From NCBI RefSeq assembly GCF_003790525.1, contig NZ_CP033635.1: a DNA stretch of 64,000 nucleotides, one strand, 5' to 3'. This DNA comes from Escherichia coli (lineage in GTDB: Bacteria > Pseudomonadota > Gammaproteobacteria > Enterobacterales > Enterobacteriaceae). Made by a program: the position numbers and the translations under genes. The notes under the pieces are model-generated. The model made no database searches and had not been told where the DNA came from. It saw only the letters and a program-made list of their open reading frames with translations. Position 1 is the stretch's first letter, and each line of letters starts with the position of its first letter. Positions 19,895 through 21,629 of the stretch are shown one piece after another.

Positions 19895-19979
19895 TGAGTG
19901 CCCTGCGTTGAGTTCTGTTTGGATAATCTTACACTTAACCGTCGACGTCTGTCAGTGAAAGCGTATGCCCGTCATGATG

Positions 19980-20531
19980 TCAGGGCAATTCCGGCGGCAG
20001 CCACTCATCCACTTCTATCAACACCAGCAATGCCGCATCACCACCGTACTCTTTCGGTGCCTGATGAAATGCCATTACATGGGGATGTTGCGCCAGCCAC
20101 AGTGGCGTTTGCTGCTTCAAAATATGCTTACCATGACCATGCATCACACAGGCGCAAAACACATGTTCGCGGCGACAGGCGGCAATCAATGCGCCTAACT
20201 CCTGCTTGGCTTGCAGCTGCGTCAAACCGTGCAAATCCAAAAACAGCTCCGGTGAATAATCACCGCGCCGCAGTTTCTTCGCTTCAAAATGGCTGACATC
20301 CGGGCGAACATATTTCACCGGACCTTCGGTATTTAATAATGGTTGAAACTCATCGGAGAAATAATGGCTGGCATCGGCCTGCTCCTGAATCAACCGCTTG
20401 ACCGGCACTTCGCTGATTTTTTTACGCTGCGGTCGGTGGACAATCGTGTCCTGCTTAATCTTGCGAGTCCCCGCCATCAACTGGCGAAACAGCGCCTGGT
20501 CCTCCTCGCTAAGTGTTGTTTTCTTTTTCAT
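19980..20531 (-). CDS. smrB: Ribosome rescue factor SmrB (Smr-domain endonuclease)
   Basis: 183-aa ORF, Smr domain in C-terminal half; synteny next to prmB. Confidence 0.9.
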
Positions 20532-20696
20532 TTATCTGTCTCTATTTTTAATTTTCCTACAGTTTACCCGACTCACCGTACAATCGATCGCTTAAAACGT
20601 ATTTTTCCTCACTCACCGCGCGTGAATGCTGATTTATCGTCATCTTCATGGCAAACTAGCCGCCGAAATTATTGCGATCATGCCCTGGAGGAATAC

Positions 20697-21629
20697 GTGG
20701 ATAAAATTTTCGTTGATGAAGCAGTAAATGAGCTGCAAACCATTCAGGACATGTTGCGCTGGTCGGTGAGCCGCTTCAGCGCGGCGAATATCTGGTACGG
20801 CCACGGCACTGATAACCCGTGGGATGAAGCCGTGCAACTGGTGTTGCCTTCACTCTACCTGCCGCTGGATATCCCGGAAGACATGCGCACCGCGCGTCTG
20901 ACCTCCAGCGAAAAACACCGTATTGTTGAGCGCGTGATCCGCCGCGTCAACGAACGCATTCCGGTGGCTTACCTGACCAACAAAGCCTGGTTCTGCGGTC
21001 ATGAATTTTACGTCGATGAACGCGTGCTGGTGCCGCGCTCGCCGATTGGTGAACTGATCAACAATAAATTTGCCGGACTCATCAGCAAGCAACCGCAGCA
21101 CATTTTAGATATGTGTACCGGTAGCGGCTGCATCGCCATTGCCTGTGCTTATGCCTTCCCGGATGCAGAAGTCGACGCGGTTGATATCTCTCCCGACGCG
21201 CTGGCGGTTGCCGAACAGAATATCGAAGAACACGGTCTGATCCACAACGTCATTCCGATTCGCTCCGACTTGTTCCGTGATTTACCGAAAGTGCAGTACG
21301 ACCTGATTGTCACTAACCCGCCGTATGTCGATGCGGAAGATATGTCCGACCTGCCAAACGAATACCGCCACGAGCCGGAACTGGGCCTGGCATCTGGCAC
21401 CGACGGCCTGAAACTGACGCGTCGCATTCTCGGAAACGCGGCAGATTACCTCGCTGATGATGGCGTGCTGATTTGTGAAGTCGGCAACAGCATGGTACAT
21501 CTTATGGAACAATATCCGGATGTTCCGTTCACCTGGCTGGAGTTTGATAACGGCGGCGATGGTGTGTTTATGCTCACCAAAGAGCAGCTGCTGGCGGCCC
21601 GTGAACATTTCGCGATTTATAAAGATTAA
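20697..21629 (+). CDS. prmB: Ribosomal protein uL3 glutamine methyltransferase PrmB
   Basis: GTG start after GGAGG RBS gives 310-aa [14 protein letters not shown]...; NPPY methyltransferase motif; ORF-track 428-aa N-terminal extension rejected. Confidence 0.9.

What the first reader, a model, noticed from the sequence alone, without database searches (positions are those of the whole stretch)
19895..19979. Only 85 bp separate smrB from the inserted ATPase gene; candidate own promoter or read-through from smrB
The ATPase gene starts 85 bp downstream of the co-directional smrB stop, with no obvious terminator between them and a weak Shine-Dalgarno. On the minus strand there is a sigma-70-like element CTGACA-N18-TAAGAT (plus coordinates ~19926-19955). 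The pair could therefore be expressed from this weak promoter and/or by read-through from the housekeeping smrB promoter, which would tie defence gene expression to a ribosome-rescue gene.
Basis: inference. Interest (0 to 1): 0.4.

Follow-up and report, generated by a model that had tools for sequence, protein, structure and literature searches.

The report
Septu defence cassette's own weak promoter
The 85 bases between smrB and the ATPase gene are the front end of an already catalogued, imported Septu phage-defence gene pair; they most likely hold its own weak, ordinary promoter, and nothing stops smrB transcripts from running in as well.

Summary
On the minus strand smrB ends at 19980 and the ATPase gene starts at 19894. 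The 85-bp spacer has no terminator or hairpin, the Shine-Dalgarno is weak, and CTGACA-N18-TAAGAT lies at 19955..19926.

The two genes are a type I Septu system (ptuA, ptuB). It is about 99% identical to the published 'Septu EcB88' and is already catalogued at 'yfcO-yfcN'.

The whole spacer belongs to a 2,128-bp segment that replaced the native smrB-yfcO intergenic region, hairpin or REP pair included.

Alone, the promoter-like motif is near chance level. Two things raise it:
- Its last ~70 bp travel with ptuAB into three other gene neighbourhoods (after gltD, hmuV and a marR-like gene). The -35/-10 pair, the 18-bp spacing and the distance to the ATG are kept while the surrounding sequence diverges.
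- A published clone that starts 296 bp upstream of ptuA lacks the smrB promoter yet protects E. coli from phages.

An own weak sigma-70 promoter is therefore the best-supported reading. Read-through from smrB is structurally permitted but untested. A functional tie to ribosome rescue is not supported, because relatives sit beside unrelated genes or inside type I restriction-modification operons.

This is an ordinary feature of low interest.

The parts
19980..20531 (-). smrB (ribosome-rescue endonuclease), the core gene upstream of the spacer
   Evidence: ORF and translation. NCBIfam NF003432 SmrB scores 316 bits against a cutoff of 128. RefSeq annotation agrees.
19895..19979 (-). The 85-bp smrB-ptuA spacer. 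It lies entirely inside the imported segment and has no terminator or hairpin.
   Evidence: Homology with empty-site genomes breaks at the smrB stop codon. There is no terminator-like site, no inverted repeat, an unremarkable fold z of +0.49 and no Rfam match.
19895..19965 (-). The ~70-bp 5' flank that travels with ptuAB in other genomic contexts
   Evidence: The local alignment with L085 (PtuA 90% identical, located after gltD) starts at spacer position 15 and runs to the ATG. The four-context alignment is A1.
19950..19955 (-). Candidate -35 hexamer CTGACA (5 of 6 matches to TTGACA)
   Evidence: Found by the scan, coordinates confirmed. The homologous positions read CTGACA, CTGACA, CTTACA and TTTACT in the four contexts; T2, A4 and C5 are invariant.
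19926..19931 (-). Candidate -10 hexamer TAAGAT (4 of 6 matches to TATAAT, with A2 and T6 present), 18 bp after the -35
   Evidence: Found by the scan. Five of its 6 columns are invariant across the four contexts (TAAGAT x3, TATGAT), and there is no indel between -35 and -10. The scan independently calls the same site in L099 and L086.
19923..19939 (-). Conserved 17-mer GTTAAGTGTAAGATTAT that covers the -10
   Evidence: It matches exactly in L088 and L100-L108, whose PtuA is only 74% identical and whose neighbourhood is different, at the same distance from the ATG. It is unique in the window.
19917..19921 (-). Predicted transcription start, 5-9 nt after the -10, giving a 5' UTR of about 25 nt. 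This is inferred, not mapped.
   Evidence: Inference from the usual sigma-70 geometry, from my own knowledge. The -10-to-ATG distance of 33-34 nt is conserved.
18536..19894 (-). ptuA, the Septu ABC-type ATPase (Walker A K43)
   Evidence: PADLOC PtuA1 scores 559.5 bits, E = 1.8e-168. It is about 99% identical to PtuA of Septu EcB88, WP_000981116.1.
17893..18552 (-). ptuB, the Septu HNH nuclease (H75, N91); overlaps ptuA by 17 nt
   Evidence: PADLOC PtuB1 scores 315 bits, E = 5e-95. It differs by one residue from PtuB of Septu EcB88, WP_016243072.1.
17862..17888 (.). Hairpin after ptuB (11-nt arms, 5-nt loop). It is the only stem-loop between smrB and the convergent yfcO, and the likely end of both transcription units.
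   Evidence: Inverted repeat, 91% complementary. It has no T-run, so the terminator scan does not call it.
17852..19979 (-). The whole imported 2,128-bp segment, running from the yfcO stop codon to the smrB stop codon, that replaced the native intergenic region
   Evidence: Comparison with empty sites L002, L003 and K-12 L094. The supplement of PMC10121019 lists it as 'yfcO-yfcN', Septu, 2129 bp, with no mobile element.

Best explanation
The spacer is the 5' flank of a horizontally acquired type I Septu cassette (ptuA-ptuB). The cassette replaced the native smrB-yfcO intergenic region from stop codon to stop codon.

The promoter-proximal ~70 bp (19965..19895) belong to the cassette. They carry a weak housekeeping (sigma-70) promoter, CTGACA-N18-TAAGAT. 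Transcription is predicted to start near 19919, giving a leader of about 25 nt with a weak ribosome-binding site. The result would be low constitutive expression of the translationally overlapping ptuA-ptuB pair, ending at the hairpin at 17888..17862.

The replacement also removed the hairpin or REP elements that normally follow smrB. smrB transcripts therefore probably continue into ptuAB and add to its expression.

Shown: gene identities, insert boundaries, absence of a terminator, conservation of the motif across contexts, and phage defence from a fragment lacking the smrB promoter (published).

Inferred: that the conserved motif is the promoter actually used, the start-site position, and any read-through.
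For: 1. Gene identities. PADLOC gives PtuA1 559 bits and PtuB1 315 bits.

2. Insert boundaries. They lie at the two stop codons, and the native structured elements are missing:
- REP pair in L002/L003 (fold -59.3 kcal/mol, z = -1.9).
- 9-bp GC hairpin in K-12.
- 11-bp GC hairpin in B2-type L001.
- Nothing in the window spacer.

3. The motif travels with the cassette.
- Enterobacter chuandaensis L085/L099 (PtuA 90% identical, after gltD, behind a 16-nt-arm hairpin) has identical CTGACA-N18-TAAGAT. Homology to the window begins only ~70 nt before the ATG.
- The hemin-ABC context L088/L100-108 (74% identical) keeps an exact 17-mer over the -10 and reads CTTACA-N18-TAAGAT.
- Sodalis L086/L109 (75% identical) reads TTTACT-N18-TATGAT.
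- The 18-bp spacing has no indel, and the -10-to-ATG distance is 33-34 nt in all four.
- Hexamer columns are invariant in 8 of 12 cases, against 16 of 59 elsewhere (Fisher p = 0.012).

4. E. coli alleles. The sampled alleles carry two SNPs in the spacer and none in either hexamer.

5. Published experiment (PMC13096335).
- The cloned 2,598-bp fragment of Septu EcB88 starts at the window equivalent of 20190, that is 211 nt of smrB plus the spacer, which differs at one base.
- On the p15A vector pLG001 it protects DH10B.
- The mutations K43A, D316A, H75A and N91A abolish protection.

6. Within those 296 nt the motif is the only minus-strand consensus hit and the top PWM site.
Against: - The motif is weak: 9 of 12 matches, a suboptimal 18-bp spacer and no TG extension. 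It is not above chance on its own.
- The -35 G3 position is not conserved, and the L100 version falls below the scan threshold.
- There are only four independent contexts, and they form two related pairs, so p = 0.012 is modest.
- No transcription start site has been mapped.
- The published clone is multicopy. Read-through from the vector, or a cryptic promoter in the 211 nt of smrB coding sequence, cannot be excluded.
- Read-through from smrB rests only on the absence of a recognisable terminator. Rho-dependent termination was not testable.
Confidence: 0.6

Rival explanations
1. Read-through only. ptuAB has no functional promoter of its own in the chromosome and is transcribed as the tail of the smrB mRNA. 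The CTGACA-N18-TAAGAT match is incidental. Expression from the published plasmid came from vector transcription or from a cryptic start inside the smrB 3' coding part.
For: - There is no terminator, hairpin or significant structure between smrB and ptuA, whereas every other allele of this intergenic region has one.
- In all four stand-alone contexts the cassette is co-oriented with the gene upstream.
- In many orthologues ptuA is a downstream cistron, overlapping or within 21 nt of hsdS. The lineage is therefore used to being expressed from an upstream promoter.
- The motif alone is at chance level.
Against: - Conservation of the hexamers, their spacing and their distance to the ATG across contexts where the flanks are unrelated is not explained.
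- In Enterobacter a 16-nt-arm hairpin separates gltD from the cassette.
- The functional clone lacks the smrB promoter and the first 341 nt of smrB.
- The vector primer sequences suggest that the neighbouring lac-promoter region points away from the insert. This is my inference from primer KCO-0022.
Confidence: 0.2
2. The conserved block GTTAAGTGTAAGATTAT is not a -10 element. It would instead be a binding site for a regulator, or an RNA-level element in a longer leader, with transcription starting further upstream.
For: - Conservation extends 8 nt upstream of the hexamer (G.TAA.TG), further than a plain -10 needs.
- The -35 is only partly conserved.
Against: - There is no Rfam match and no stable or conserved structure.
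- The block has no dyad symmetry.
- The 8-bp palindrome CGTCGACG next to it is E. coli-specific and is broken by a SNP in natural alleles.
- Homology with the Enterobacter cassette starts only ~10 nt upstream of the -35, leaving no room for a conserved upstream promoter.
Confidence: 0.1
3. Chance motif in front of silent, decaying genes. The cassette would not be expressed at all at this locus.
For: - Much of phylogroup B2 retains only a ptuB 3' relic at this site, 547 genomes.
- Some carriers have a shortened ptuA: CE10 is annotated at 1,215 nt, and there is a 403-aa cluster, P0005.
- These show that the locus does decay.
Against: - Intact, overlapping ORFs are kept at >=98.8% identity in 183 genomes.
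- The near-identical allele is active against T5-like phages, T4 and T6 when expressed from this upstream region.
Confidence: 0.05

Closest known systems
Septu EcB88 of E. coli JBBDAGI-19-0041 (PMC13096335, Nat Commun 2026)
   Same: - Same two genes: PtuA is about 99% identical and PtuB differs by one residue.
- Same upstream DNA: the forward cloning primer matches window 20190..20170 exactly, and the spacer is identical apart from one T>C two bases after the -10.
- The system is reported as 'expressed from the native promoter'. It blocks Demerecviridae, T4 and T6 by cleaving tRNA-Tyr.
   Different: - The paper does not map the promoter or a transcription start.
- It does not mention smrB.
- It tests a p15A plasmid rather than the chromosomal locus, so read-through from smrB is not addressed.
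'yfcO-yfcN' Septu locus in the E. coli defence-island catalogue (Hochhauser et al. 2023, PMC10121019, supplement)
   Same: Same insertion site (yfcN is smrB), same content (Septu only) and same size: 2,129 bp listed against 2,128 bp measured here. No mobile-element genes are present.
   Different: It is a catalogue entry only. It gives no analysis of boundaries, of the replaced hairpin or REP elements, of expression signals, or of the relic in B2 strains.
Ordinary weak sigma-70 promoters of horizontally acquired defence operons
   Same: A -35/-10 pair with 16-18 bp spacing, a short leader, a weak ribosome-binding site and low constitutive expression of a potentially toxic effector pair.
   Different: Activity here is not measured. 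The -35 is only partly conserved among relatives, and conservation around the -10 is broader than the hexamer.
Defence genes embedded in type I restriction-modification operons (prrC and rloC are the classic cases, from my own knowledge; ptuAB shown here)
   Same: - Orthologues of this ptuAB at 50-78% identity lie between hsdS and hsdR.
- ptuA overlaps, or lies within 21 nt of, the hsdS stop codon, so they are expressed as cistrons of the host operon.
- This is analogous to being fed by the gene upstream.
   Different: - In the window the upstream gene is smrB, not hsdS, and the gap is 85 bp without translational coupling.
- A relic of the hsdS 3' end in the spacer could not be demonstrated.
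Retron Ec78/Eco7 (type I-A retron, 'Septu type II')
   Same: The PtuA/PtuB effector pair is homologous: NCBIfam PtuA 352 bits and PtuB 93 bits, both below the cutoffs. PDB retron PtuA chains match at E = 1e-46 to 5e-63.
   Different: - There is no reverse transcriptase ORF and no msr-msd RNA upstream.
- The 85-bp spacer has no Rfam match.
- The PADLOC stand-alone PtuA1 model scores higher than the retron I-A ATPase model, 559 against 381 bits.

Membership tests
Sigma-70 (housekeeping) promoter | -35 hexamer resembling TTGACA | tested here: met
   CTGACA at 19955..19950 matches 5 of 6. T2, A4 and C5 are invariant in four contexts, but G3 is not.
Sigma-70 (housekeeping) promoter | -10 hexamer resembling TATAAT, with A at position 2 and T at position 6 | tested here: met
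   TAAGAT at 19931..19926 matches 4 of 6, with A2 and T6 present. Five of 6 columns are invariant across contexts.
Sigma-70 (housekeeping) promoter | Spacer of 16-18 bp between the hexamers | tested here: met
   The spacer is 18 bp, which is suboptimal, and is the same in all four contexts with no indel.
Sigma-70 (housekeeping) promoter | A transcription start 5-9 nt downstream of the -10 that depends on the hexamers | not testable with these tools
   No transcription start data were available. The only indirect evidence is that a fragment starting 296 nt upstream is sufficient for defence on a plasmid (PMC13096335).
Sigma-70 (housekeeping) promoter | Occurrence above chance | tested here: inconclusive
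   Alone, the motif is not above chance: 3 sites against 5.9 expected in 4.5 kb, and 0.04 expected per 85 nt by my own PWM. With cross-context conservation the hexamers stand out at p = 0.012.
Intrinsic (Rho-independent) terminator between smrB and ptuA | GC-rich stem-loop followed by a T-run | tested here: not met
   There is no terminator-like site in 19895-19979, no inverted repeat and an unremarkable fold z of +0.49.
Septu type I defence system | PtuA ABC/AAA_15-21 ATPase with Walker A and B motifs | tested here: met
   PADLOC PtuA1 scores 559.5 bits over residues 2-450. The GNNGAGKT motif places K43 where expected. D316 of the published allele is essential.
Septu type I defence system | Adjacent PtuB HNH nuclease in the same operon | tested here: met
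   PADLOC PtuB1 scores 315 bits. ptuB overlaps ptuA by 17 nt. H75 and N91 are present in the translation.
Septu type I defence system | No associated reverse transcriptase or ncRNA (this separates it from retron I-A, also called Septu II) | tested here: met
   Only smrB and yfcO flank the pair, and there is no Rfam match in 17700-20700.
Septu type I defence system | Anti-phage activity | not testable with these tools
   Activity is published for the ~99% identical EcB88 allele (PMC13096335). It was not tested for this exact sequence.
Type I R-M-embedded ptuAB (hsdM-hsdS-ptuA-ptuB-hsdR) | hsdS immediately upstream and hsdR downstream | tested here: not met
   In the window the neighbours are smrB and yfcO. 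The arrangement is present in relatives L087, L089, L093 and in 11 further loci.
Type I R-M-embedded ptuAB (hsdM-hsdS-ptuA-ptuB-hsdR) | Relic of the hsdS 3' end in the 5' flank, as in stand-alone relatives L010, L034 and L043 | tested here: inconclusive
   - Two nhmmer profiles of hsdS tails do not hit the spacer.
- The best pairwise score, 29 against L034, beats 500 of 500 shuffles.
- That score is only about the 99th percentile against other real pieces of the window.

The most novel reading that the evidence does not exclude
Main reading. ptuAB cassettes escape from type I restriction-modification operons carrying the last few dozen bases of hsdS, and that dead coding tail was remodelled into the cassette's promoter. 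The -35 would derive from the Leu-Leu-Thr-Gly codons (TTG TTG ACG GGT). The -10 would derive from the Arg-Arg-Val-Lys codons (CGN CGN GTT AAG) after a small insertion restored an 18-bp spacing.

The evidence does not exclude this:
- The closest relatives of the stand-alone clade are R-M-embedded.
- Three stand-alone orthologues carry statistically clear hsdS-tail relics directly upstream of ptuA.
- The E. coli spacer resembles those relics at the right offset.
Against it, profile searches do not confirm the resemblance.

Second, less likely reading. Co-transcription with smrB would be functionally meaningful: Septu cleaves tRNA-Tyr, which stalls ribosomes, and SmrB cleaves mRNA at collided ribosomes. 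I put that below 0.05.
Probability: 0.12. Interest if true: 0.45.

Novelty: new member of a known kind. Interest (0 to 1): 0.17.

Why it matters
It matters little beyond annotation.

Practical value:
- It fixes the boundaries of a small Septu cassette, 2,128 bp from stop codon to stop codon, with no mobility genes.
- It points to the roughly 70 bp that should be kept when moving the system 'with its native promoter'.
- It tells anyone studying Septu EcB88 in its native chromosome that smrB transcription may contribute to expression, because the smrB terminator was lost.

Evolutionary value:
- This ptuAB lineage alternates between being a cistron inside type I R-M operons and being a self-sufficient two-gene cassette.
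- A large part of phylogroup B2, including Nissle 1917 and LF82, carries a fossil of it.

Tried and rejected
1. Spacer as a fossil of the hsdS 3' end.
- An nhmmer profile of 11 intact hsdS tails did not hit the spacer; the best window hits, at E >= 1.5, were elsewhere.
- A second profile that included the significant relics L010, L034 and L043 also failed.
- Pairwise Smith-Waterman gave score 29 against L034. That beat 0 of 500 shuffles, but it is only about the 99th percentile against real sequence.
- I keep this as a weak idea, not a finding.

2. Microhomology junction. GCCCTGA at the smrB stop resembles the GCC CTG ATG codons of hsdS. This was seen by eye only, could not be tested, and is not claimed.

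3. Structured RNA, riboswitch or ncRNA in the spacer. There are no Rfam matches at E <= 1 and the fold z is +0.49.

4. Operator. The palindrome CGTCGACG (19947..19940) lies between -35 and -10. It is absent from Enterobacter and broken by a natural SNP in E. coli alleles.

5. Terminal repeats or an att-like site of a mobile element. No repeat joins the two ends of the insert. The 12-nt direct repeat CGTCGACGGTTA (spacer and ptuB 3' part) is at chance level by my estimate, about 0.14 expected.

6. Sigma-54-like GGCAC near the ATG. The downstream half does not fit (by eye).

7. Leader peptide. The 7-codon ORF at 19975..19952 is not conserved in L085.

8. Solved structures of this exact system. 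PtuA matches only distant chains, and PtuB matches none.

9. Canonical terminators insulating the cassette in the other contexts. The scan calls none. Only a T-less hairpin after gltD in Enterobacter was found.

10. Literature on Septu inside type I R-M operons. Nothing explicit turned up in the papers opened. Septu inserted within hma operons is reported in PMC11232893.

Full report
**Observation.** On the minus strand the window holds four features in order.
- smrB lies at 20531..19980 (183 aa; NCBIfam SmrB 316 bits).
- An 85-bp gap lies at 19979..19895.
- A 452-aa ATPase gene lies at 19894..18536.
- A 219-aa gene lies at 18552..17893 and overlaps the ATPase gene by 17 nt.

The consensus scan reports CTGACA-N18-TAAGAT at 19955..19926 on the minus strand and no terminator-like site in the gap. 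The gap has no inverted repeat. The RNA fold of the smrB 3' end plus the gap is unremarkable (z = +0.49), and there is no Rfam match. Shine-Dalgarno pairing is -3.1 kcal/mol, equal to the median of random 20-mers.

The motif alone is not above chance. The scan found 3 promoter-like sites in 4.5 kb against 5.9 expected. An approximate PWM of my own expects a site this good 0.04 times per 85 nt.

**What the genes are.** PADLOC assigns them to PtuA1 (559 bits) and PtuB1 (315 bits), a type I Septu system with no reverse transcriptase.

The window is 100% identical to E. coli strain 165. Of 5,426 complete E. coli genomes, 183 carry the pair, always next to smrB and at >=98.8% identity.

The system is already in the literature.
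- The supplement of Hochhauser et al. 2023 lists a 2,129-bp Septu-only locus 'yfcO-yfcN' with no mobile element. yfcN is smrB.
- PMC13096335 characterises 'Septu EcB88' from E. coli JBBDAGI-19-0041. Its PtuB differs from the window's by one residue, and its PtuA carries the same K43 and D316 positions.

**Boundaries.** I compared the window with genomes that lack the pair. Homology breaks exactly at the smrB stop codon on one side and at the yfcO stop codon on the other. The imported segment is therefore 17852..19979, 2,128 bp, and the whole 85-bp spacer belongs to it.

What it replaced is structured in every other allele I examined.
- Strains D3 and MZ1211 have a REP pair (fold -59.3 kcal/mol, z = -1.9).
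- K-12 has a 9-bp GC hairpin.
- The B2-type allele has an 11-bp GC hairpin.

In the window the only stem-loop between smrB and yfcO lies after ptuB, at 17862-17888. Nothing recognisable would therefore stop smrB transcripts before ptuA. That is a structural inference; no transcript data were available.

**Does the promoter-like element mean anything?** Within E. coli the spacer is nearly invariant. The sampled alleles carry two SNPs, neither in a hexamer. I therefore looked for relatives elsewhere and found the closest ones in three other neighbourhoods.
- Enterobacter chuandaensis: PtuA 90% identical, located after gltD and behind a 16-nt-arm hairpin.
- An unnamed enterobacterial lineage: 74% identical, located after the hemin ABC-transporter ATPase gene.
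- Sodalis: 75% identical, located after a marR-like gene.

In every case the pair is co-oriented with the upstream gene and faces a convergent gene.

Homology of the window with the Enterobacter flank begins only ~70 nt before the ATG and includes an identical CTGACA-N18-TAAGAT. The hemin-locus flank shares an exact 17-mer, GTTAAGTGTAAGATTAT, over the -10, although its protein is only 74% identical, and it reads CTTACA-N18-TAAGAT. Sodalis reads TTTACT-N18-TATGAT.

The 18-bp spacing carries no indel, and the -10-to-ATG distance is 33-34 nt in all four, while the leader sequence itself diverges. Hexamer columns are invariant in 8 of 12 cases against 16 of 59 elsewhere (Fisher p = 0.012). The scan independently calls the homologous site in Enterobacter and Sodalis. 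The hemin-locus version, at 8 of 12 matches, falls below its threshold.

**Experimental support from the literature.** The EcB88 fragment cloned in pLG001 (p15A) is described as 'expressed from the native promoter'.
- Its forward primer matches window 20190..20170 exactly.
- The published insert therefore begins 296 nt before the ptuA ATG. It holds the last 211 nt of smrB plus a spacer that differs from the window at one base, two positions after the -10.
- It lacks the smrB promoter and the first 341 nt of smrB.
- It still protects DH10B against T5-like phages, T4 and T6.
- Walker A, Walker B and HNH mutations abolish protection.

Within those 296 nt the motif is the only minus-strand consensus hit and the top PWM site.

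Two caveats apply. The plasmid is multicopy. Vector read-through is not formally excluded, although the primer sequences suggest that the adjacent lac-promoter region points away from the insert (my inference).

**Mechanism proposed.** The cassette brings its own weak sigma-70 promoter. The predicted start is near 19919, with a leader of about 25 nt and a weak ribosome-binding site. This suits low constitutive expression of an ATPase-nuclease pair that cleaves tRNA-Tyr on infection (mechanism from PMC13096335). In the chromosome, smrB transcripts probably add to this because the terminator was lost.

I put 0.6 on this combined picture. The rivals are read-through only (0.2), the conserved block being a regulatory site rather than a -10 (0.1), and silent genes (0.05).

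**The smrB link.** The comparative data argue against any functional coupling with ribosome rescue. The smrB placement is a single E. coli event, and close relatives sit beside unrelated genes.

More distant orthologues (50-78% identity) are very often cistrons inside type I R-M operons.
- In 11 of 42 loci ptuA overlaps, or lies within 21 nt of, an hsdS-like stop codon.
- Three further loci have Pfam-annotated Methylase_S (hsdS) overlapping ptuA. Klebsiella L087 and Undibacterium L093 show the full hsdM-hsdS-ptuA-ptuB-hsdR order; L089 is a short contig that shows only the hsdS overlap.
- Several 'stand-alone' loci have hsdS within 3 kb upstream or a significant hsdS-tail relic directly upstream of ptuA.

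**Origin idea, not established.** The E. coli spacer resembles such relics at the right offset. However, two profile searches failed to detect it, and the pairwise score is only about the 99th percentile against real sequence.

**Verdict.** The feature is an ordinary promoter region of a known, published defence system at a catalogued locus. Interest is low.

Noticed in passing
L001:1464-1782 (E. coli K-15KW01); the equivalent site in the window is 17852-19979: In 547 of 5,426 complete E. coli genomes the smrB-yfcO gap is 319 bp and contains an unannotated fossil of the 3' third of a diverged ptuB, starting right after the smrB stop codon. These genomes include Nissle 1917, LF82 and NU14. Septu at this site is therefore old and was lost by deletion in that lineage.
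   Followed up: partly
L094:2159-2228 (K-12), L002:1653-1773, L003:1651-1790, hit H16 (strain 2013C-3264): The smrB-yfcO intergenic region is highly polymorphic in E. coli. K-12 has 70 bp with a GC hairpin. Other strains have 121-140 bp with a REP pair. One strain has an IS621 insertion. The flanking smrB 3' end and yfcO are themselves only ~90% identical between lineages.
   Followed up: partly
L087:3185-13386 (Klebsiella quasipneumoniae), L093, L089, and L006-L039: Orthologous ptuAB pairs sit between hsdS and hsdR of type I R-M operons. The hsdS stop overlaps the ptuA start, either as TAATG or as an 11-nt overlap. In Klebsiella the operon follows a phage-type integrase gene and is followed by CBASS genes (Cap15, CD-NTase).
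   Followed up: partly
L010:2912-2972, L034:2938-2986, L043:2939-2987: Stand-alone ptuAB loci in Halomonas and Marinomonas carry statistically significant relics of an hsdS 3' end directly upstream of ptuA (nhmmer E = 6e-10 to 2e-3). L043, L017, L029, L031 and L046 have hsdS-like sequence 1-3 kb upstream.
   Followed up: partly
L098 (E. coli CE10, NC_017646.1 2761404-2762618); protein cluster P0005: Some carriers have a shortened ptuA. It is annotated as 1,215 nt in CE10, and a 403-aa cluster has 17 members. Septu may therefore be inactivated in part of the 183 genomes.
   Followed up: no
window 19952-19975 (minus strand): A 7-codon mini-ORF, ATGACGGGCATACGCTTTCACTGA, starts 4 nt after the smrB stop and ends inside the -35 hexamer. 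Its 5' part lies outside the region conserved with Enterobacter.
   Followed up: partly
window 19936-19956 and 17951-17971: A direct repeat with a 12-nt exact core, CGTCGACGGTTA on the minus strand, occurs in the spacer between -35 and -10 and again in the 3' part of ptuB (codons PVDGY). By my estimate it is about chance level.
   Followed up: no
L005 (contig DXKH01000145.1, labelled Citrobacter sp. MAG): This contig holds a 99% identical ptuA with the same smrB-side spacer (one SNP). It is probably an E. coli-derived contig binned as Citrobacter, or the result of very recent transfer.
   Followed up: no
L099, L100-L108, L086/L109 and window 17852-19979: In all four stand-alone contexts the cassette lies between convergent genes and is co-oriented with the upstream gene (smrB, gltD, hmuV, marR-like). 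No integrase or transposase is nearby.
   Followed up: partly
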